IMG/VR virus record: IMGVR_UViG_3300036402_000062
Coordinates: 135-64,134 of that record
Strand: one strand, 5' to 3'
DNA from: a virus
Length of the DNA stretch: 64,000 nucleotides
The position numbers and the translations under genes are program-made. This document shows positions 3,334-52,181 of this stretch, piece after piece (position 1 is the stretch's first letter; every line of letters begins with the position of its first letter). The notes under the pieces are model-generated. The model saw nothing but the letters and a program-made list of their open reading frames with translations. It ran no database searches and was not told where the DNA came from.

Positions 3334-3675
3334 TCAGCCACGGTCGTTCTCCTGTTGTGCGTCACGACACGGGGCCACGTCATCGGGCAGCACGCCAGCG
3401 GCGGCCTGCCAGACGGCCACGAGGTCGTCGGCTTCCATGTGCATGGCGTGGCCTTCGATCAAGTCGTCCGCCACGCCGGGATTGCAGTTCGGCATCGCAG
3501 CCACAGCAGCCCGAATGATGGCCTCGCGCTGGAGAGCCGATGCACCCACAGCCACGCCAGCAGGCGCTTTTGCCGGAGGCCACTGATTGCGCTCCACGCC
3601 GCAGGCGCAGGCCGGCCAAGAGCACTTCCCCTTGGCATAGCCACGATCGCATTTCGTCGCCGGGTGTTCGCTCAT
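3334..3675 (-). CDS. hypothetical phage protein
   Basis: ORF from MSEHPATKC with Cys cluster; ends in the shared APCRDAQ boundary motif. Confidence 0.6.
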   Translation of the reverse strand: MSEHPATKCDRGYAKGKCSWPACACGVERNQWPPAKAPAGVAVGASALQREAIIRAAVAAMPNCNPGVADDLIEGHAMHMEADDLVAVWQAAAGVLPDDVAPCRDAQQENDRG

Positions 3676-3816
3676 TGCCCGCTGGGCGCGACGCTGCGCG
3701 TTGTAGGCCAGTGCGGCGAGCACCGGCAACTTACCGCGTGGCACAGGTCAATCATGGCTAACACCGCGCGCGCGGCCGCCGCGAACACCAGCAGCAGCGC
3801 GAACCAGAGGAGGCGC

Positions 3817-4263
3817 TTACATATCTGCATCACTGCCCCTCGCCTGCGTCAGCGTGTCGCGCGGTTTCGCTTCGCCATCAAGCACCCCCACGCCAGAAGT
3901 GGGCGATGTGTCTCTCGGGTCGCATAGCCCGGCGCAGGTATCCATCGCCTTGCACGCTTCCTTGTTCGGACAGGTGCCGGTAGCGGCTGGCACGTTACGG
4001 AACAGTGAGCTGCACGCTCCGCAGCCCATGTCCATACAGCGGGCGCAGCCGGGCGCTTCGGGCCCCTTCACGCCAGCAGCGGCGCGGGTGTTCCATTTGG
4101 CGAAGTCGCCCGCGCTCTCGAAGATGACGAACGGATCGCCCAGCCCTACAGCGGACAGAACGCAGTCGCTGGTCGGGTGCTGATACCAGCTGTCGCCCTC
4201 GCGGCGCGGCTCGTAGCGCACCAGTGATGTGCCGCAGAACGGGCACGGTTTCAGTTCAACCAT
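3817..4263 (-). CDS. Lar (restriction alleviation)-like Zn-ribbon protein
   Basis: N-terminal ELKPCPFCG and later KWNTRA motif typical of the Lar family; start ATG 4263. Confidence 0.65.
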   Translation of the reverse strand: MVELKPCPFCGTSLVRYEPRREGDSWYQHPTSDCVLSAVGLGDPFVIFESAGDFAKWNTRAAAGVKGPEAPGCARCMDMGCGACSSLFRNVPAATGTCPNKEACKAMDTCAGLCDPRDTSPTSGVGVLDGEAKPRDTLTQARGSDADM

Positions 4264-4597
4264 GCTGGCCTCCATCAATCGGTGCCACGCCACGGGGCAC
4301 CCACGATTCGTATTCGGCATGGCCCATCGCAATCAGGACTGCCGGCGGCTGGTCGGGCACACTCGTCACGTAGGACCGTCGGTTCTGCGGCAGCGCCGCA
4401 TTGAAGCAGGACGGGCACACTTGGTACGGTGGCAACCAGTCCGCGCAGGTCTTCACCTCTCCGCAACAGGAGCACCAGCCGCGCGCCCTGCCGTACTGTC
4501 TGAAGTTGGCGTTCAGCGCGACGGTGGCAAAAGCGTCGCGCTTGCCCATGACCTCGCGCATACGCTCAATCGTGATGCGGGGGAAGTCACTTTCCAT
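4256..4597 (-). CDS. hypothetical Zn-finger protein
   Basis: CSCC and CPSC motifs; coupled overlaps. Confidence 0.6.
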   Translation of the reverse strand: MESDFPRITIERMREVMGKRDAFATVALNANFRQYGRARGWCSCCGEVKTCADWLPPYQVCPSCFNAALPQNRRSYVTSVPDQPPAVLIAMGHAEYESWVPRGVAPIDGGQHG

Positions 4598-44902: not shown

Positions 44903-45691
44903 ATGAAAATCAAGCGCTTCCTCCCTCTGCTCTTCGCGGCCGCCCTCGCCGCTGTGTCGGTCGCGGCGCAGGCCGCTGGCGTGGACGTGAACGGCTTCAT
45001 CGCCGCGCACAGCGACGCCATCACCGGCTTGGCCATGGTCGGCTCGGTTTCCCTCCCGAACGGCGCCCTGGTGCACATCGCCAGCGGCTACGGAGCGTCG
45101 AAGACGATGTCCGCGATCACCAACGCCTCCGCGGCGGTGGCAACGCTGGAAGCTTCGCACGGAGTCATCGTCAACGACATCATCGAGGTGACCTCCGGCT
45201 GGTCCCGCCTGAACAACAAGGTGGTGCGCGCCTCCGTGATCTCCACCAATGACGTGACGCTGGAAGGCATCGTCAGCACGTCGACCGCCATCTACCCGGC
45301 CGGTACCGGCACGGGCTCGGTGCGCGAGATCACTGGGTGGACCCAGCTGCAGCAGATCCTTGACTCCGGTTCCAACGGCGGCGAGCAGCAGTTTCTCGAG
45401 TTCCAATTTCTTGAAGGCGACGCGCAGGTGCGCATCCCGACGTTCAAGAATGCCGCGGGCCTTTCCTTCAGCATCGCGGACGACCCGACCCTGGCCGGCT
45501 ACCTGCTCGCGTCTGAAGCGAACGACGACCGGCTGCAGCGCGCGGTGCGGATCACGCTGCCGTCGAGCGCGAAGATCTATTACAACGCGTATATCAGCCT
45601 GAACAAGACGCCGTCGCTGAACGTCAACCAGCTGATGGCATGCCAGGTCACGTTGTCGCTGCTGAACGAGCCGGTGCGCTACACCTCGTAA
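44903..45691 (+). CDS. major tail tube protein with signal-peptide-like N-terminal extension
   Basis: SVSLPNGA core start, SGWSRLN, GGEQQF..QFLE, PSLNVNQ; preceded by MKIKRFLPLLFAAALAAVSVAAQAA. Confidence 0.88.
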   Translation: MKIKRFLPLLFAAALAAVSVAAQAAGVDVNGFIAAHSDAITGLAMVGSVSLPNGALVHIASGYGASKTMSAITNASAAVATLEASHGVIVNDIIEVTSGWSRLNNKVVRASVISTNDVTLEGIVSTSTAIYPAGTGTGSVREITGWTQLQQILDSGSNGGEQQFLEFQFLEGDAQVRIPTFKNAAGLSFSIADDPTLAGYLLASEANDDRLQRAVRITLPSSAKIYYNAYISLNKTPSLNVNQLMACQVTLSLLNEPVRYTS

Positions 45692-46315: not shown

Positions 46316-46684
46316 TCAGGAACCGAACTGTCTAAGTGTCGGATCGCGCTTTGTGCGCGGCGCGGCGCAAACCCATTCGCTGAGGGCGCGTGATGCCTTC
46401 GTCGCGCCCGCCTTGTCCCCCGCGAAGTTGACGCCCTTGCGGTCTTGCAGCGTGATGACGCTTCGTTGGCAGTTGACGACGAGAAAGAACGCGGTCCGGT
46501 CAACCCCCTTCGGGCCACCCATGAAGACGGGAGATGCACGGACGTCACCGTTCGCTGTGACGTTGGATTCGTCGATGCACATAGTCCCCCGAGTGACTTC
46601 GTCAACGTGGCACGACAATTCTTTCGCATGAGCAGAGCCGAGAAGGAATGCGACGAGGCCGAGCGCCAACCGCAGTGCAGTCAT
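46316..46684 (-). CDS. exported protein (moron)
   Basis: Signal peptide MTALRLALGLVAFLLGSAHA; four Cys; antisense to the tail genes. Confidence 0.75.
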   Translation of the reverse strand: MTALRLALGLVAFLLGSAHAKELSCHVDEVTRGTMCIDESNVTANGDVRASPVFMGGPKGVDRTAFFLVVNCQRSVITLQDRKGVNFAGDKAGATKASRALSEWVCAAPRTKRDPTLRQFGS

Positions 46685-47019
46685 TTGCCCCCCTTAATTT
46701 TGCGGGGCGGCTGTTCGGGGGGGCGCACCTGCCCGAAGTGAATCGGATCGCCGTCATCATGCATTTCAATGCCGCCATCCTCGGGCTGGCGCTGCATCCA
46801 CTTGTGCAAAGCGTCTACTTGTAGCGACAAGCGATCGAAGCGGCGCGCGAATTCAGAGGCCGCGGCAGGTTCAAGGGTCTGCTGAAGGCGCGCGACGATC
46901 TCGGAGTTCATGGAGCGGTTGTTCCGCTTCGCCGCCTCCGCGATCTTGTCGCGCATGCCATCTGGCAGCCGAACGATGAACCGATCGGCGAGTTCGCTGG
47001 GGTACTTGTCAGCCGGCAT
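46681..47019 (-). CDS. Arc/Mnt-family ribbon-helix-helix repressor
   Basis: DRFIVRLPDGMRDKIAEAAKRNNRSMNSEIVARL. Confidence 0.92.
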   Translation of the reverse strand: MPADKYPSELADRFIVRLPDGMRDKIAEAAKRNNRSMNSEIVARLQQTLEPAAASEFARRFDRLSLQVDALHKWMQRQPEDGGIEMHDDGDPIHFGQVRPPEQPPRKIKGGK

Positions 47020-47036
47020 CGGCCCATGCTAATCCC

Positions 47037-47093
47037 GACTTGGCATCAAGGGAATCATGCCAACTTGTCATCGATGCCGAGTCGCCATATAGT
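47037..47093 (+). promoter_or_regulatory. sigma70 promoter with Arc/Mnt-type operator repeats
   Basis: TTGTCA (47065-47070), 17 nt, TATAGT (47088-47093); TTGGCAT/ATGCCAA inverted repeat 47040-47063 and a third half-site GATGCCGAG 47073-47081. Confidence 0.75.
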
Positions 47094-47128
47094 GACGGTG
47101 TCAACACGATGTAGCTGAGAGGTACTAA

Positions 47129-47305
47129 TTGAAAGCCGGAAAACGTCCGATCCCCCCATTTGGGCTCCGCCTGCCGGAAGACCTCAAGACGTGGCTTGAG
47201 GTGCGCGCCCGCGAAAACCGACGCTCCATGAACTCAGAAATCACCTTTTTGCTTGACCGGTACCGCGCGCAGCAGCAGCGGCAGCCACAGGAGGCGATGC
47301 AGTGA
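47129..47305 (+). CDS. Arc-like repressor (58 aa, not in ORF track)
   Basis: Own translation from TTG: MKAGKRPIPPFGLRLPEDLKTWLEVRARENRRSMNSEITFLLDRYRAQQQRQPQEAMQ; GAGAGG RBS. Confidence 0.85.
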   Translation: MKAGKRPIPPFGLRLPEDLKTWLEVRARENRRSMNSEITFLLDRYRAQQQRQPQEAMQ

Positions 47306-47841
47306 CCGCGCAGGTGCTTGTCTTCGCCGACTACCAGGGGCTGGAGGTGTCGTTCACCCCAGACGGCTGGTTCAACGCCACTGCGGCCGCGAGCAAGTTC
47401 GGCAAGAAGCCCAACGAGTGGCTACGACTGCCGGAGACGAAGCGGTACATGCGCGCGCTAGCCAGGAAGGCCGAAGCGGGAAAATCCCACTTCGGGTACC
47501 GGACGGAGCGCGGTGGTCGCATGGGCGGCGGCGTCACCTGGCTGCATCCGAAGCTGGCGGTTCGGTTCGCTCAGTGGCTTGACGTGGACTTCGCGGTCTG
47601 GTGCGACGAGCAGATCGACGCCTTGCTGCACGGCCGCCCGGTGGTCGGCGCCGGACTCTATGCGCAGCGACTCGCTTTCGAGGGTCGAAAAGCCGGGAGC
47701 GAGCAGAAGGGACGGATCGGCAGTCGATTGATGAATGAGCGACGGAGGGAAAAGCCGGCGCTGGAGCAACAGGACGAGCGGTGGAAGCTGACCATGGAAC
47801 CCGGCTTGTTCGGGCGATTGGACTTCGCACAGGCTGCCTGA
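47302..47841 (+). CDS. KilA-N domain protein (antirepressor-like)
   Basis: DGWFNATAAASKFGKKPNEWLRL, GG.TWLHPKLAV.FAQWL..DFAVWCD. Confidence 0.9.
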   Translation: MTAQVLVFADYQGLEVSFTPDGWFNATAAASKFGKKPNEWLRLPETKRYMRALARKAEAGKSHFGYRTERGGRMGGGVTWLHPKLAVRFAQWLDVDFAVWCDEQIDALLHGRPVVGAGLYAQRLAFEGRKAGSEQKGRIGSRLMNERRREKPALEQQDERWKLTMEPGLFGRLDFAQAA

Positions 47842-47916
47842 AAAGGTGAAGCCCCGACGCTGGCAGGCGTCAGGGCTTCGGTGATGAACCCAACCCGTCT
47901 AAGAGAAGGAATCAAC

Positions 47917-48177
47917 GTGGCGAAGATTACCACCGCGCGCCGGAGCGCGCAAACACGACAGTTTTCGAAGTTCATGGCGCAAGTCATGGAGCCGGTGACC
48001 CAGAAGCCGACCCTGCGGGAGGCGATCGCAACGATTGGAGAAGCCCTCCAGCCGCTCGGCCAGTTGGAGCGAGACGTTATCGCGGTCGGCCTCGCTCTCC
48101 TCGCGAAGAACCCGGAGCAGAGCGGCAGGCTCGCGATGTCCATCAGCGTCTTGGCTGGACACGAGGCAGCACGCTGA
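47917..48177 (+). CDS. hypothetical helical protein
   Basis: GTG start after an AGAAGGA RBS; TGATG-coupled to the RAMP-like gene. Confidence 0.6.
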   Translation: MAKITTARRSAQTRQFSKFMAQVMEPVTQKPTLREAIATIGEALQPLGQLERDVIAVGLALLAKNPEQSGRLAMSISVLAGHEAAR

Positions 48178-48752
48178 TGGTCACGAAAAAAGAAACCACG
48201 ATCACGCTGCCGGCGCTGAATATTCAGTTCCTGAAGCTGCGACTGGTGGGCGACAGCCCGCTGATCTGCCACGCCTGGAGCGAGAAGGCGAAGAAGCAGA
48301 TGCTCGACGCGCAGATGAAGAAGGCAAAGCAAGCGAAGGCCGCCAAGGACCCGGAGCAGGATTTCCAGGACTCGCTCTACACGCACCCTGATGGCGGATA
48401 CGGCTTCCCCGCGGTTGCGTTCAAGGCGGCGGCGGTGGACGCCTGCAGTTCCATCGAGGGCGTCACGAAAGTGGAGGCGCGCGGCGCCTTCCACATCATG
48501 GGCGACATGGTGAAGATCGAAGGCGAGCCGACGCCGCGCGAAGACATGGTGCGCGTTGGCATGGGGACGGCGGACATCCGCTACCGTGGCGAGTTCCGCG
48601 AGTGGGCTGCAGACATCACGCTCCGCTACAACGCAAACGTGCTGAGCCCGGAGCAGATCGCGAACTTGTTCAACACAGCCGGCTTCGCGGTCGGCGTGGG
48701 CGAGTGGCGTCCGCAGCGTGACGGCAGCTTCGGCATGTTCCACGTGGGTTGA
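48177..48752 (+). CDS. stand-alone RAMP/Cas7-like RNA-binding protein (Vipr-like)
   Basis: RAMP hallmarks: beta1 LRLVGDSPL, GFPAVAFKAAA (cf. IPgssLKG), terminal Gly-rich loop GVGEWRPQRDGSFGMF; 191 aa. Confidence 0.8.
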   Translation: MVTKKETTITLPALNIQFLKLRLVGDSPLICHAWSEKAKKQMLDAQMKKAKQAKAAKDPEQDFQDSLYTHPDGGYGFPAVAFKAAAVDACSSIEGVTKVEARGAFHIMGDMVKIEGEPTPREDMVRVGMGTADIRYRGEFREWAADITLRYNANVLSPEQIANLFNTAGFAVGVGEWRPQRDGSFGMFHVG

Positions 48753-48754
48753 TC

Positions 48755-49240
48755 ATGATCTACAAGTTCAGGGACGGCGCCCACCTCACGGGCGATGCGC
48801 AGAAGGTGGGCGAACGGCTGGCGGCACTGGAGGCCTCCGGGCGCCTGACGGCCAAAGCGGTGGTGCAGGAAGCTCGCAGCGACGACAGCCCGTTGCATCC
48901 GCTGTTCGAATGGGACGACGCGAAGGCGGCGGACAAGTACCGGATCGCACATGCCGGTCACGTGATTCGCTGCGTCACCGTGGTGTTGGACCAGCAGCAA
49001 TCGGAAGAGCCGAAGACGATTCGCGCGTTCGTGCCGATCACGCAGGGCGACGAGAGCCGGCAGTACGTGGACACCGTGCGCGCGTTGAGCGACACTGAGA
49101 TGCGCAGGCAGGTGCTGGCGCAGGCGCACGCAGAACTCGGCGCAGTGGCGCGCAAGTACCGCGAACTGAAGGAGCTGGCGGACGTGGTGAACGCAATCGA
49201 CCGCGTCGGCGAGCTCCTGAAGGAAGGGCAGCACTCGTAA
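48755..49240 (+). CDS. conserved phage protein linked to the RAMP gene and array
   Basis: LTAKAVV.EAR...SPLHPLFEWDDAKAA..YR motif; lies between the RAMP gene and the array. Confidence 0.8.
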   Translation: MIYKFRDGAHLTGDAQKVGERLAALEASGRLTAKAVVQEARSDDSPLHPLFEWDDAKAADKYRIAHAGHVIRCVTVVLDQQQSEEPKTIRAFVPITQGDESRQYVDTVRALSDTEMRRQVLAQAHAELGAVARKYRELKELADVVNAIDRVGELLKEGQHS

Positions 49241-49250
49241 GAGGCTGGCC

Positions 49251-49445
49251 CGGGCCCCAAGGCCCGAAACATGGCAGGCATGGCTCGGCAAGGCGAGTCG
49301 GGGCTTGGCGTGGCTTGGCTTGGCGCGGCTGGCTAGGCGCGGTTTGGCTAGGCAAGGCAGGGCTTGGCGCGGCCCGGCGAGGCGAGGCAGGCATGGCTTG
49401 TCTTGGCATGGCACGGCTGGGCACGGCTCGGCCCGGCAGGCGGTA
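49251..49445 (+). ncRNA. putative guide RNA: 5' hairpin plus GGY-NN pentamer array (vrRNA-like)
   Basis: 30 pentamers (27 GGC-NN, 1 GGT-NN, 2 GTC-NN) in 3 blocks delimited by 4-nt GGCW units at 49273, 49327, 49386, 49435; hairpin CGGGCC-ccaa-GGCCCG 49251-49266. Confidence 0.85.
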
Positions 49446-49451
49446 AATGGG

Positions 49452-49480
49452 AAGGCCCTCTTCGGAGGGCCTTTTCTTTT
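49452..49480 (+). terminator. intrinsic terminator closing the array
   Basis: AAGGCCCTC-TTCG-GAGGGCCTT-TTCTTTT. Confidence 0.9.
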
Positions 49481-49490
49481 GGGGAAATAG

Positions 49491-52181
49491 ATGGCGGACC
49501 TCAAAGCACAACTACAGATCGGCGCCGACGTTTCCGGCGTCGAAGCGGGAATCACGCGTGCGAAGAAGTCGATCAACAGCCTCGGCGTGGCCGTTCAGGA
49601 CGCGAACAGCAAGGGCGCGAAGTCGATCGACCGCTACGTCCAGACCCTGCAAACGCAGGCTGCGACGATGGGCAAGTCCTCGCGCGAGGCGGATCTGTAC
49701 AAGCTGGCGCTGAAGGGTGCTTCCGACCAGCAGCTGAAGGCAGCCGACACGGCCATCAAGATGAAGGAGGGCTACGAGCGAGGGGAAGCCGCGGCGCAGC
49801 GCCTGCGCTCGGCCTTCGTTGCGATGGGCGCCATCGCCGCCACCAGCCTGATCGGCGCGCTCGTCGCGTTCGACCAGCTGGTGAAGAAAGCCGGTGACTT
49901 TCAGGACATGGCCGAGAAGTTCGGCGATTCCGGGGAGAACTTCGCCTCGCTCGCCGTTGCCGCCGGCACCGCGGGTGTGCAGATGGACGTGGTCGGATCG
50001 GCCGCGGGCAAGCTGACGAAGAACCTCACCGGCGTGGACGACGAGTCCAAGGCGGCAGGCGCGGCGATCACGGCGTTGGGCTTGAACCTCGCCACCTTCA
50101 AGCAACAGAGCCCTGCCGACCAGATCGAAACCGTCGCGAAGGCGCTGGCCGGGTTCGAGGACGGCGCGACAAAGACTGCCGTGGCGATGGCGCTGTTCGG
50201 CAAGTCGGGCGCCGACCTGTTGCCGTTCCTGAAGGAGCTGGGCGCCGAGGGCGGCCGGCAGGTGATCCTGACGCAGGAGCAGATCCGCCTGGCGGACGAA
50301 TACTCCGATCGCCAGGCCAAGCTGCGCACGGAGATCAGCCTGCATGCGCAGGCGCTGGCCACGGAGCTGCTGCCAACGATCACTCAGTTCACGGCCGCCA
50401 TCGCCGAACTTGCCAAGGACCAGCAAATTGCCTCTGCGGCGGTCGACCTGCTCAAGTCGGCAATCGGCGGCGGGATCGTCGTCTTTCAGACGATCGCAGT
50501 CGTCGCCTCCGATGTGGGGTTTGTGTTCAAGGTGCTTGGCCTAGAGGTCAAGGCGACCTACGACCAGCTGGTGAAGATCGCAACGCTGGATTTCACTGGT
50601 TTCGCAGCAATCAGTGAAGCTGTGGAGAAGGATGCCGCACGAGCACGCTTGACGCTCGATCAGTTCCAGGCTCGGATCATGGCCATCGGCCAGCCCAAGT
50701 TCACCGATCCGCGCATCCTCGGACCAGTTGGATCAATCGCTGAACAGTCGGCCGGCTTCCGAAAGAAGCTGACATTCGACGGCGGCGAGAAGAAAGGCGA
50801 CAAGAGCGCGGAGCAGGAGGCGAAGGCGCGGCTCGCTTTCGACCTGGAGCAAATCAAGAAGGCGTCAGAGTCGATCATCGGGTCGTTCAGCAATGGCGAA
50901 CGAATGCTGGAGGCGGCCCGGTCGGCCGGATTGCTGGACGAGAGGGATTACTACGACCAGAAACTTGCCTTTCTGCGCGCGAATGCGGCTGAGCAGGAGG
51001 CTGCAATCAGCGCCGAGATCAACCGTCTGCAACGGGAGAAGCTGACGGGCAAAGACAAGATCGACAACGACCGAAAGATCCTCGACTCGAAGGCGAAGCT
51101 GGCGAAGGCGACCGCCGATGCTGCGGCTTCGGAGCAGGTGCTGGCCACGCAAACCACCGCAGCACTTAGCCGGCAACAGGTTGCCTTGCTCTCGGCTCGC
51201 CAAGCCGCACAGGACTACTACGACGAGGTCCAGCGTCAGCAGCAGCGCGAGCTGGCCAGCGTCGGGCTAGGCAAGCGCCAGCGCGACCTGAATGCCGGCG
51301 TCAACCAGATCGAGGACCGGTACGCGAACCAGCGTCGCGACCTGGAGAACCAGCGCGCGTTGATCGCGATGGAAGGCAAGACGACCGCCGAGACGGAGCG
51401 TCAATACGCCGAGCGTCTGCGGATCATCAACGAGTTTCAGCAGCGGTCGGTGGATTCGTACATCGGCTATTACGCCCGGCTCATGGAGCAACAGGGTAAT
51501 TGGGCCGCCGGCGCGAACGAGGCGCTGCAGAACTACTACGACGATTCGCAGGACGTGTTCAAGGGCGTCGAGGGCGCCGTCACGAAGGCGTTCCAGGGCA
51601 TGGAGGACGCGCTCGTCGAGTTCGCCACCACCGGGAAGATGAACTTCAAGGGGCTGGTGAATTCGATCATCGCGGACATCGCCCGCATCGTGATCAGGCA
51701 GAACATCACCGGGCCGCTGGCGAAGGCGCTGCAGGGCTCCTTCGGTGGCGGCGGCAGCGGCCCCGGCGGCGGCTTCAGCTCCGACGCGAGCCTGCTGAAC
51801 TACGTGAACGCGATGCCCAGCGCCAAGGGCAACGTGTTCCAGTCGGCCGGCCTCGCAGCCTACTCGAACCAGATCGTCAACAGCCCGACGCTGTTCGCGT
51901 TCGCGCGCGGTGCCGGGCTCATGGGCGAGGCTGGCCCGGAGGCGATCATGCCGCTGCGCCGCGGCGCCGACGGTCGGCTGGGCGTGGAGGCGGCGCAGGG
52001 CGGCGGCGCCATCCACATCGTGAACAACCTGCCCGCGCAGATCGGCAAGGTCTCGCAGCGCCAGACACCCGACGGCGACCGGGTTCTCGTTCTCGAGGCT
52101 GTGGCGACGGCGCTGGGCGACCCGCAATCGCGCGTGAGCAAGGCCATGCAGCGCAACTACGGGTTGTCGAGGAACCGCTGA
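49491..52181 (+). CDS. tail tape measure protein (lambda gpH-like C-terminus)
   Basis: 896 aa, helical Ala-rich; C-terminal SAKGNVF...SPTLFAF..GAGLMGEAGPEAIMPL.RG.DG.LGV. Confidence 0.95.
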   Translation: MADLKAQLQIGADVSGVEAGITRAKKSINSLGVAVQDANSKGAKSIDRYVQTLQTQAATMGKSSREADLYKLALKGASDQQLKAADTAIKMKEGYERGEAAAQRLRSAFVAMGAIAATSLIGALVAFDQLVKKAGDFQDMAEKFGDSGENFASLAVAAGTAGVQMDVVGSAAGKLTKNLTGVDDESKAAGAAITALGLNLATFKQQSPADQIETVAKALAGFEDGATKTAVAMALFGKSGADLLPFLKELGAEGGRQVILTQEQIRLADEYSDRQAKLRTEISLHAQALATELLPTITQFTAAIAELAKDQQIASAAVDLLKSAIGGGIVVFQTIAVVASDVGFVFKVLGLEVKATYDQLVKIATLDFTGFAAISEAVEKDAARARLTLDQFQARIMAIGQPKFTDPRILGPVGSIAEQSAGFRKKLTFDGGEKKGDKSAEQEAKARLAFDLEQIKKASESIIGSFSNGERMLEAARSAGLLDERDYYDQKLAFLRANAAEQEAAISAEINRLQREKLTGKDKIDNDRKILDSKAKLAKATADAAASEQVLATQTTAALSRQQVALLSARQAAQDYYDEVQRQQQRELASVGLGKRQRDLNAGVNQIEDRYANQRRDLENQRALIAMEGKTTAETERQYAERLRIINEFQQRSVDSYIGYYARLMEQQGNWAAGANEALQNYYDDSQDVFKGVEGAVTKAFQGMEDALVEFATTGKMNFKGLVNSIIADIARIVIRQNITGPLAKALQGSFGGGGSGPGGGFSSDASLLNYVNAMPSAKGNVFQSAGLAAYSNQIVNSPTLFAFARGAGLMGEAGPEAIMPLRRGADGRLGVEAAQGGGAIHIVNNLPAQIGKVSQRQTPDGDRVLVLEAVATALGDPQSRVSKAMQRNYGLSRNR

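What the first reader, a model, noticed from the sequence alone, without database searches (positions are those of the whole stretch)
49271..49445. Array grammar: three guide blocks with AT-rich variable dinucleotides
Seen: four-nt units (GGCA 49273, GGCT 49327, GGCA 49386, GGCA 49435) break the 5-nt register into three blocks. Block 1 (49277-49326) NN = AT TC AA GA GG TT GT TT TT GC. Block 2 (49331-49385) NN = TA GC TT TA AA AG TT GC CC GA GA. Block 3 (49390-49434) NN = AT TT TT AT AC TG AC TC CC. The constant triplet is kept in 28 of 30 pentamers (two GTC variants), while NN is unconstrained and 38/60 A+T in a strongly GC-rich phage. GGCAGGC recurs at three of the four junctions. Inference: three separate guides of 9-11 units each, processed or phased at the tetramer junctions, aimed at AT-rich regulatory DNA (promoters, operators, ori, att) rather than coding DNA. 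Slippage-generated microsatellites would homogenise NN rather than diversify it.
Basis: partly seen in the sequence, partly recalled or inferred. Interest (0 to 1): 0.9.

Follow-up and report, generated by a model that had tools for sequence, protein, structure and literature searches.

The report
Phage VIPR guide-RNA array, three guides
The 5-base GGC-NN repeat tract is the guide-RNA array of a phage VIPR system, a CRISPR-like DNA-silencing system first described in 2026 preprints. Two of its three guides spell conserved motifs of rival phages' genes (a Rha regulator and the major tail protein) while skipping every third codon base, so it is a new example of a known kind.

Summary
At 49273-49441, 32 GGC triplets lie 4, 5 or 10 nt apart; the next-longest chain in the window has 4.

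This is a VIPR locus (bioRxiv 10.64898/2026.04.26.720920 and .720927).
- The 191-aa gene two genes upstream matches the solved SUSP1 Vipr protein (E 1.7e-13) and folds like Cas7/Csm3.
- Homologues in Mycobacterium, Gordonia, Pseudomonas, cyanobacterial and Felix-O1-like phages all carry same-strand GGY-NN arrays.
- Close relatives have 1-4 blocks with different NN strings.

Under the published 1-nt-skip rule:
- Block 2 matches 21/22 positions of the major tail protein gene of related siphophages, but only 18/22 in the phage's own copy.
- Block 1 matches 18-19/20 positions of the conserved Rha motif.
- All skipped bases fall at codon position 3, and no other gap size beats shuffled controls.
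- Block 3 has no target found.

"Three separate programmable guides" is supported. "Aimed at AT-rich regulatory rather than coding DNA" is not. The AT-richness comes at least partly from skipping the GC-rich wobble base.

No RNA data were available. This scan has already found VIPR loci on other DNA.

The parts
47065..47093 (+). sigma-70-like promoter (TTGTCA, 17 nt, TATAGT), the likely start of the operon that ends with the array
   Evidence: 10 of 12 matches; shuffles of the region give 0.1 sites on average. No promoter-like site lies between 48500 and 50000.
47129..47305 (+). Arc-like ribbon-helix-helix regulator, first gene of the island. A divergent Arc-like gene lies at 46681-47019 on the minus strand.
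   Evidence: PF03869 at E 1.3e-9 (plus-strand gene) and 7.3e-17 (minus-strand gene).
47302..47841 (+). KilA-N domain gene
   Evidence: PF04383, E 2.3e-18.
48177..48752 (+). vipr: a minimal RAMP (Cas7-like) protein of 191 aa, inferred to bind one pentamer per protomer
   Evidence: phrog_4652. The family profile hits PDB 36pp_D 'SUSP1 Vipr protein' at E 1.7e-13. The AF2 model has pLDDT 93, and its best Foldseek PDB matches are Csm3/Cas7 chains (E 3.5e-6, prob 1.0). The G-loop GVGEWRP (173-179) and thumb R137 align with SUSP1 D177/W178/R179 and R138.
48749..49240 (+). vap-like accessory gene (163 aa, phrog_15946); function unknown
   Evidence: It sits next to vipr in Quico, Saal, Ecliptus, UmaThurman and Cy-LDV1. 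In the MAG prophage the two homologues carry adjacent locus tags. The AF2 model has pLDDT 94: an alpha/beta domain plus a 45-residue C-terminal helix. No PDB fold match beyond coiled coils. No detectable relation to the type II vap.
49251..49272 (+). leader: a 6-bp hairpin (49251-49256 with 49261-49266), then GAAACAT just before the array
   Evidence: The hairpin and GAAAC are kept in the closest relative L063, with one compensatory pair change. GAAAC also precedes the arrays of L004 and L005. The fold energy is not better than shuffles (z -0.3), so the support is comparative only.
49273..49330 (+). opening GGCA unit, then guide 1 (10 pentamers, 49277-49326) and junction unit GGCT
   Evidence: Under the xNN rule it spells the Rha motif M-S-K-D-G-F-V-F-L-A. 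It matches 18/20 in L063:5102-5131 (a PF09669 gene) and 19/20 in L180, L120 and L117. 1 of 500 shuffles reaches 18.
49331..49389 (+). guide 2 (11 pentamers, 49331-49385) and junction unit GGCA
   Evidence: It matches 21/22 on the antisense strand of the major tail protein genes in L051-L055. The junction unit read as AG also matches, giving 23/24. Shuffles reach at most 18.
49390..49438 (+). guide 3 (9 pentamers, 49390-49434) and junction unit GGCA; target not found
   Evidence: no match above shuffles. The 33 exact metagenome hits fall in unrelated cellular genes.
49444..49484 (+). intrinsic terminator closing the operon: 12-bp G+C-rich stem, UUCG loop, U-run. It ends 7 nt before the tape measure start codon (49491).
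   Evidence: -22.7 kcal/mol, z -2.2. The simple scanner missed it.
45560..45592 (-). the phage's own near-target of guide 2, inside its major tail protein gene (44903-45691); 18/22, with four mismatches
   Evidence: 1-3 of 2000 shuffles reach 18. All 11 skipped bases are at codon position 3. The own peptide PSSAKIYYNAY is unique among the 120 closest homologues.

Best explanation
The tract is the vrRNA (guide RNA) array of a phage-borne VIPR system.

The operon reads: promoter 47065, arc, kilA-N, orf98, vipr, vap-like gene, array, terminator. It sits as an island between the tail assembly chaperone gene and the tape measure gene.

Inferred mechanism, by homology with the SUSP1 system:
1. The transcript is coated by Vipr, one protomer per pentamer. 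Each GGY is buried in protein and each NN is left exposed.
2. The exposed dinucleotides pair with double-stranded DNA that carries the same dinucleotides separated by one skipped base. This blocks transcription of the target.
3. The array is of the 'staggered' kind. Three guides of 10, 11 and 9 pentamers abut at a 1-nt register slip (GGCA|GGC), without the structured 3' tail that type II guides have.

Guide 1 is written against the most conserved motif of Rha-family regulator genes. Guide 2 is written against a conserved motif of the major tail protein gene of related siphophages. The phage's own tail gene differs at four read positions. The locus therefore most likely silences competing phages or prophages.

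Shown here: the anatomy, the protein homology, the cross-phylum association of gene and array, the hypervariable NN strings, and the in-silico targets. Inferred: transcription, cleavage at the junctions, binding and silencing.
For: Array anatomy.

Vipr homology:
- The profile hits the solved SUSP1 Vipr at E 1.7e-13.
- The fold is Cas7/Csm3-like.
- The GGY-binding residues are conserved.

Association of gene and array:
- A same-strand GGY-NN array lay next to the phrog_4652 homologue in 11 of the 13 other loci examined (L001, L004-L007, L009-L013, L063, L181), plus the window itself. L003 showed none and L008 is cut at a contig end.
- The family has 3955 clusters at 50% identity.

Programmability:
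- Relatives with 66-89% identical Vipr carry 1-4 blocks with different NN strings.
- Junction spacing has modes at 49, 54 and 59 nt.

Targets:
- Guide 2: 21/22 in L051-L055.
- Guide 1: 18/20 in a Rha gene inside a relative's VIPR island, and 19/20 in three other Rha genes.
- Only the 1-nt skip exceeds shuffles.
- The skipped base is the wobble base in every case.

The array RNA does not fold better than shuffles (z -1.5), as expected for a protein-bound extended guide.

The mechanism and the 1-nt-skip rule come from bioRxiv 10.64898/2026.04.26.720920 and .720927.
Against: - No RNA evidence: no RNA run holds this sequence. Transcription, cleavage at GGCA|GGC and loading on Vipr are therefore inferred.
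- Guide 3 has no target above background.
- No perfect (100%) target was found for guides 1 or 2. The best are 95%.
- The guide 2 targets were fetched after picking homologues whose peptide fitted the guide. The Rha loci were collected with a pattern that contains the motif. The unbiased tests are therefore only the own-genome hit (p about 0.001) and the L063 hit (1/500).
- The own-genome match of 18/22 (82%) passes the preprint's 80% threshold, although the preprint reports no self-hits at that level.
- The accessory protein has no recognisable DNA-binding or nuclease fold, and no relation to the characterised vap1 was detected.
- The VIPR type (I-VII) could not be assigned, because the figures and tables of the preprint are not held.
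Confidence: 0.8

Rival explanations
1. The system is the same, but the array works as one long, uncleaved 33-unit RNA. The tetramers only reset the register of a continuous Vipr filament, and the blocks act as segments rather than as separate guide molecules.
For: There is no tail, hairpin or ribozyme between blocks. Staggered arrays were not among the architectures the preprint confirmed by small-RNA sequencing. Only one promoter and one terminator flank the tract.
Against: Blocks 1 and 2 address unrelated genes, and the matches stop at the junctions. Block number varies from 1 to 4 among relatives. The preprint's legend for staggered arrays describes individually processed vrRNAs that overlap by 1 nt.
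Confidence: 0.12
2. One reading: the guides are aimed at AT-rich regulatory DNA (promoters, operators, ori, att) rather than at coding DNA.
For: The NN bases are 63% A+T in a 65.5% G+C phage. This is somewhat above the 46% expected from codon positions 1-2 alone. Guide 3 has no coding target.
Against: Both identified targets are coding, with every skipped base at the wobble position. No intergenic match exceeds shuffles in the window or in about 3 Mb of related phage DNA. The preprint reports the same coding and wobble pattern.
Confidence: 0.04
3. A non-programmable RNA: a sponge or scaffold whose GGC triplets titrate an RNA-binding protein (in the manner of TRAP or CsrA), or a G-rich structure. 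On this view the NN bases are mere spacers.
For: Conserved triplets with 2-nt spacers resemble TRAP binding sites (my own knowledge, not tested). GG tracts every 5 nt could in principle form two-tier quadruplexes.
Against: The NN strings of two blocks match conserved phage gene motifs far above shuffles, and only at one gap size. The partner protein is a homologue of a solved RNA-guided DNA binder.
Confidence: 0.03
4. A slippage-generated microsatellite, or a mis-called coding region, with no function of its own.
For: Tandem Repeats Finder reports periods of 5, 10 and 15. One relative's array is annotated as a CDS (UmaThurman gp40).
Against: The NN bases are diverse rather than homogenised. 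A 5-nt period with 4-nt slips cannot keep a reading frame. The arrangement is conserved next to one protein family across phages of distant hosts.
Confidence: 0.01

Closest known systems
VIPR systems with staggered vrRNA arrays (bioRxiv 10.64898/2026.04.26.720920, fig. S18 legend)
   Same: A lone Vipr RAMP gene plus an accessory gene. Guides are built of GGY-NN pentamers, with 9-16 repeats per guide. Neighbouring guides overlap by 1 nt, which is the GGCA|GGC register slip seen here. The system is phage-borne, follows the 1-nt-skip rule with the skipped base at the wobble position, and targets other phages.
   Different: The preprint did not confirm staggered arrays by RNA sequencing, and its main text names no example from this clade. 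I could not assign a type. Here the island sits inside the tail gene cluster under its own Arc-like regulators.
Type II VIPR of Escherichia phage SUSP1 and Felix-O1-like phages (PDB 36pp; bioRxiv .720920, .720927, 10.64898/2026.10.15.759431)
   Same: The Vipr proteins belong to the same PHROG family (phrog_4652). The window's family profile aligns with SUSP1 Vipr over residues 53-188, and the G-loop and thumb residues that hold the GGY are conserved.
   Different: In SUSP1-like phages the repeats are mostly GGT-NN, and each guide carries its own roughly 40-nt structured tail. Their accessory protein is phrog_5926, with no detectable relation to the window's phrog_15946. Their targets are a satellite, not tail or Rha genes.
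Class 1 CRISPR-Cas backbone (Cas7/Csm3 filament on crRNA)
   Same: The RAMP fold is shared; the best structural matches are Csm3 chains. In both, a protein filament on a guide RNA flips bases out periodically.
   Different: There are no repeat-spacer array, no cas1/cas2 and no effector nuclease in the island. The period is 5 nt with three bases hidden, instead of 6 nt with one. The target is double-stranded DNA read with gaps.

Membership tests
VIPR system | A Vipr protein: a minimal RAMP with RRM core, glycine-rich loop and thumb, homologous to the described Vipr proteins | tested here: met
   The profile of the 191-aa protein's family hits 'SUSP1 Vipr protein' (36pp_D) at E 1.7e-13. The AF2 model (pLDDT 93) matches Csm3/Cas7 best. 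G-loop GVGEWRP and thumb R137 are conserved.
VIPR system | Tandem GGY-NN (YNNGG) pentamers beside vipr on the same strand, with 9-16 repeats per guide | tested here: met
   Blocks of 10, 11 and 9 pentamers lie 520 nt downstream of vipr on the same strand. The same holds in 11 of the 13 other loci with a homologue that I examined.
VIPR system | GGY conserved and NN hypervariable between related loci | tested here: met
   L063, L004, L005 and L006 (66-89% Vipr identity) have different NN strings and 1-4 blocks. Over 273 units from 12 loci, the constant triplet is GGC 193 times and GGT 42 times.
VIPR system | Targets obey the 1-nt-skip rule (guide GGYNN reads target xNN), usually with x at the codon wobble position | tested here: met
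   In silico only, and for two of three guides. Guide 2: 21/22. Guide 1: 18-19/20. Skips of 0, 2 and 3 never exceed shuffles. All skipped bases are at codon position 3.
VIPR system | An adjacent accessory (vap) gene | tested here: inconclusive
   A conserved neighbour (phrog_15946) accompanies vipr in at least 6 loci. It shows no detectable relation to the type II vap and no recognisable fold. Which of vap1-6 it is, if any, could not be checked.
VIPR system | vrRNA expressed, bound by Vipr, and able to silence matching DNA | not testable with these tools
   No RNA run was listed for the sequence. Binding and silencing need experiments.
Type II VIPR (SUSP1-like) | Each vrRNA ends in an invariant structured 3' tail (a pseudoknot in the SUSP1 clade) | tested here: not met
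   No sequence lies between the blocks apart from the 4-nt unit. The only hairpin is the terminator after the last block. Downstream sequences are not conserved among relatives. The Felix-O1-like locus L181 does show such tails.
CRISPR-Cas | A repeat-spacer array with cas1/cas2 or an effector module | tested here: not met
   No direct repeats with spacers were found, and no cas gene family appears among the island's genes.

The most novel reading that the evidence does not exclude
In this tail-less, staggered class, a 1-nt register slip (GGCA|GGC, spaced 49, 54 or 59 nt apart in phages of Proteobacteria, Actinobacteria and Cyanobacteria) is by itself the signal that sets guide boundaries, whether by filament phasing or by an unknown cleavage. 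The guides are written against protein motifs (Rha M-S-K-D-G-F-V-F-L-A; tail tube S-G-A-K-L-F-Y-N-A-Y), so one guide covers many rival phages whatever their codon usage or G+C content. The carrier phage stays immune because its own tail gene has drifted at four read positions, all of which change an amino acid.
Probability: 0.3. Interest if true: 0.55.

Novelty: new member of a known kind. Interest (0 to 1): 0.4.

Why it matters
VIPR was described only in 2026 preprints, and experiments so far cover mainly the SUSP1 and Pseudomonas fulva (type II) systems. This locus adds four things:
- A worked natural example of the untested staggered, tail-less array class, from a G+C-rich temperate siphophage.
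- Two readable natural targets: a structural late gene and a Rha-type regulator.
- A built-in control, the phage's own 18/22 tail-gene site, for measuring how many mismatches VIPR tolerates.
- A practical point for annotation: such arrays lie in "empty" gaps of many actinophage and proteobacterial phage genomes, and at least one appears to be annotated as a gene.

It does not reveal a new kind of system.

Tried and rejected
- **Rfam.** Only sub-threshold hits, all caused by the terminator.
- **Exact xNN scans of IMG/VR.** Guides 2 and 3 gave 0 hits. Guide 1 gave 7 hits. Five lie in phrog_19383 proteins of 40-46% G+C phages (peptide ISKDGFVLLA). Two lie out of phase in a tail tube gene of a 35% G+C phage. 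I judged these to be chance hits multiplied by homology, because about one chance family is expected for 20 specified AT-rich bases. No shuffled-pattern scan of the collection was run.
- **Guide 3 in metagenome contigs.** 33 exact hits in unrelated cellular genes such as a cNMP-binding protein and a CinA-like protein. Rejected as chance.
- **Guide 1 with up to 2 mismatches in 301 genomes of the family of the MAG that holds L063.** 4 hits against 1 for the reversed control. Two of the new hits look Rha-like. This is weak.
- **Guides parsed from relatives' arrays, scanned against this window.** None beat shuffles, so no reciprocal targeting was seen.
- **Tail tube homologues in IMG/VR, 43-66% identical.** At best 17/22 for guide 2.
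- **Accessory protein.** No PDB sequence hit, no Foldseek hit, only coiled-coil matches to its C-terminal helix, and no hhalign relation to the type II vap.
- **QUICO_56.** Not related to either window protein.
- **Genome-contig scan with Vipr.** One locus only.
- **RNA runs.** None listed.
- **Supplementary tables of the preprint.** Not held, so the VIPR type is unassigned.
- **Readings considered and dropped.** The tail-chaperone frameshift extension, TRAP-like sponge and G-quadruplex readings were dropped once the Vipr homology and the targets appeared.

Full report
**Observation.**
The tract at 49273-49441 is real and far beyond chance. 32 GGC triplets follow one another at spacings of 4, 5 or 10 nt, whereas the next-longest such chain on either strand of the window has 4 members. 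Four 4-nt units (49273, 49327, 49386, 49435) break the 5-nt register into blocks of 10, 11 and 9 pentamers. Rfam has nothing for the tract.

**Setting.**
The tract fills most of the 250-nt gap between a 163-aa ORF and the tape measure gene (49491-52181; PF09718). Upstream, the tail tube gene (44903-45691; PF08813) and the chaperone region (DUF1799) are followed by an inserted island:
- divergent Arc-like genes;
- a promoter-like site at 47065-47093 (10 of 12 matches);
- a KilA-N gene;
- a 98-aa ORF;
- a 191-aa ORF (phrog_4652);
- the 163-aa ORF (phrog_15946);
- the array;
- a strong terminator hairpin at 49444-49484 (-22.7 kcal/mol, z -2.2).

No promoter-like site lies next to the array, so it is probably the 3' end of this operon.

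**What led to the identification.**
A distant DNA search of the phage collection matched only the repeat tract itself, in Mycobacterium phages Quico and Florinda. Quico has a 250-nt GGC-NN array with the same GGCAGGC punctuation, and the gene just downstream of it is phrog_4652, the family of the window's 191-aa ORF.

I then examined homologues in Gordonia phages Ecliptus and UmaThurman, Mycobacterium phage Saal, Pseudomonas phage LESphi2, cyanophage Cy-LDV1, a Felix-O1-like Shigella phage, six IMG/VR contigs and one MAG prophage. Eleven of these 13 loci carry a GGY-NN array on the same strand as the gene: upstream of it, between it and the next gene, or downstream of both. L003 showed none, and L008 is cut at the contig end. 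The second gene (phrog_15946) travels with the first in most of them. The protein family is large: 3955 clusters at 50% identity.

**Identity.**
A literature search found that this arrangement was published in 2026 as VIPR (Viral Interference Programmable Repeat): bioRxiv 10.64898/2026.04.26.720920, its cryo-EM companion .720927, and 10.64898/2026.10.15.759431. According to these preprints:
- A lone, minimal RAMP protein (Vipr) coats a vrRNA made of 9-16 GGY-NN pentamers, one protomer per repeat.
- The GGY bases are buried in protein and the NN bases are displayed.
- Double-stranded DNA is recognised where the same dinucleotides occur separated by one skipped base.
- The skipped base usually falls on the codon wobble position.
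- Natural targets are competing phages and satellites.
- Array architectures include 'staggered arrays' in which neighbouring vrRNAs overlap by 1 nt.

I tested membership directly:
- A profile of the window protein's family hits the solved 'SUSP1 Vipr protein' (PDB 36pp_D) at E 1.7e-13.
- The AF2 model (pLDDT 93) matches Csm3/Cas7 chains best.
- The residues reported to hold the two guanines and the pyrimidine (SUSP1 R138, D177, W178, R179) align with R137, E176, W177 and R178.

**Are the blocks separate, programmable guides?**
Relatives whose Vipr is 66-89% identical have 1, 1, 2 and 3-4 blocks with unrelated NN strings, each block bounded by GGCA|GGC. Over 12 loci from phages of three bacterial phyla, the spacing between successive GGCAGG motifs peaks at 49, 54 and 59 nt, that is 9, 10 or 11 pentamers plus the tetramer. 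43 of 69 spacings are 4 modulo 5. The 4-nt unit is what the preprint's legend calls a 1-nt overlap between adjacent vrRNAs. The array RNA does not fold better than shuffles (z -1.5).

**Targets.**
I scored each block against DNA with 0-3 skipped bases, using unit-shuffled guides as controls.
- **Own genome.** Only block 2 at skip 1 stands out. It matches 18/22 on the antisense strand of the phage's own major tail protein gene (45560-45592), and 1-3 of 2000 shuffles reach this. All 11 skipped bases are at codon position 3. The four mismatches would turn the own peptide P-S-S-A-K-I-Y-Y-N-A-Y into S-S-G-A-K-L-F-Y-N-A-Y.
- **Guide 2 in other phages.** Among the 120 closest tail tube homologues, the own version of this motif is unique, while P-S-G-A-K-L-F-Y-N-A-Y occurs in five. 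Fetching the DNA of two of these proteins gave five loci from different samples and two sequence groups (46% and 60% G+C). Block 2 matches 21/22 in each, although their wobble bases differ. The junction unit read as AG matches as well, giving 23/24. Those phages have no island between chaperone and tape measure genes.
- **Guide 1.** At skip 1 it matches 18/20 in L063:5102-5131, and 1 of 500 shuffles reaches this in 1.06 million positions. The site lies in a Rha-family gene (PF09669, E 1.2e-25) that occupies, in that relative's own VIPR island, the place of the window's KilA-N gene. The skipped bases again fall on codon position 3. In 80 further Rha loci the guide reaches 19/20 three times and 18/20 many times, always on the motif M-T-K-D-G-F-V-F-L-A/V, while other skips stay at or below 16. 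Those loci were collected with a pattern that contains the motif, so they show what the guide spells, not an independent probability.
- **Guide 3.** No target. There were no exact hits in IMG/VR. The 33 exact hits in metagenome contigs lie in unrelated cellular genes, which is what chance looks like at 18 specified bases.
- **Guide 1 exact hits.** Seven exact IMG/VR hits fall in an unknown protein family of much lower G+C phages, and I regard them as chance.

The guide idea, the role of the NN bases, the three separate guides and the single-N gap pattern are borne out. The proposed target class is not. Both readable guides address coding DNA. The A+T excess is at least partly a by-product of leaving out codon position 3, which is 14% A+T here against 38% and 55% at positions 1 and 2, combined with motifs rich in K, F, Y, N and I.

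**How it most likely works.**
The island's promoter drives vipr, the accessory gene and the array as one transcript that ends at the terminator. Vipr polymerises on the pentamers. The three guide segments, probably separated at the register slips, direct binding to Rha genes and to tail tube genes of related phages and block their transcription. The carrier's own tail gene escapes through four mismatches. The October 2026 preprint reports the same pattern, self-match scores lower than matches to other phages, for SUSP1-family solo vrRNAs. Everything after 'one transcript' is inference from homology, because no RNA data exist for this sequence.

**Differences from the characterised type II systems.**
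- The constant triplet is GGC rather than mostly GGT.
- There is no per-guide structured tail.
- Guides abut directly.
- The accessory protein family has no detectable relation to the type II one and has no recognisable fold beyond a long C-terminal helix.

The type (I-VII) could not be assigned.

**Verdict.**
This is a new member of a known, very recently described kind. This scan has already reported VIPR loci on other DNA, including staggered arrays. Its notes on this same window read the 191-aa gene as RAMP-like, which my tests confirm.

Noticed in passing
L009 (Gordonia phage Ecliptus) 1762-4613, compared with window 46681-49484: In an actinophage the VIPR island (two HTH regulators, vipr, array, vap-like gene, one more ORF) sits in the same slot as here, between the tail assembly chaperone and tape measure genes, with its own regulators. 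The two phages infect hosts of different phyla, so this slot looks like a recurrent insertion point for the module.
   Followed up: partly
L010 (Gordonia phage UmaThurman) 3634-3957: The annotated CDS gp40 (hypothetical protein) coincides with GGY-NN arrays at 3622-3938. It is probably a mis-called gene over vrRNA DNA.
   Followed up: no
window 49266-49272; L063, L004 and L005 just upstream of their arrays: A GAAAC motif directly precedes the first GGCAGGC in four proteobacterial loci. In the window and L063 it follows a small hairpin that keeps pairing through a compensatory change. From memory, many CRISPR repeats end in GAAAC or GAAAG. This is a lead only; I did not test it.
   Followed up: partly
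window 45560-45592 (minus strand): The phage's own tail tube gene matches guide 2 at 18/22 (82%), just above the 80% level the preprint uses to call natural targets. All four differences change an amino acid, and the resulting motif is unique among the 120 nearest homologues. This could be escape from self-silencing, or residual self-regulation of a late gene.
   Followed up: partly
L056, L057, L059, L060, L061 (IMG/VR contigs of 40-46% G+C): Guide 1 matches 20/20, in wobble phase, the peptide ISKDGFVLLA in a 700-850-aa protein of unknown function (phrog_19383). The hosts are probably unrelated to this phage's host, so I treated it as chance plus homology. No shuffled control scan of the collection was run.
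   Followed up: partly
window 49444-49484: The simple terminator scanner reported no site in 48500-50000. Yet a 12-bp G+C-rich hairpin with a UUCG loop and a U-run is present and folds at -22.7 kcal/mol.
   Followed up: yes
L012 (Cyanophage Cy-LDV1) 3439-3626 and 4226-4384: Two GGC-NN arrays flank the vap-like gene of a cyanophage. The same GGCAGGC punctuation occurs as in proteobacterial and actinobacterial phages.
   Followed up: no
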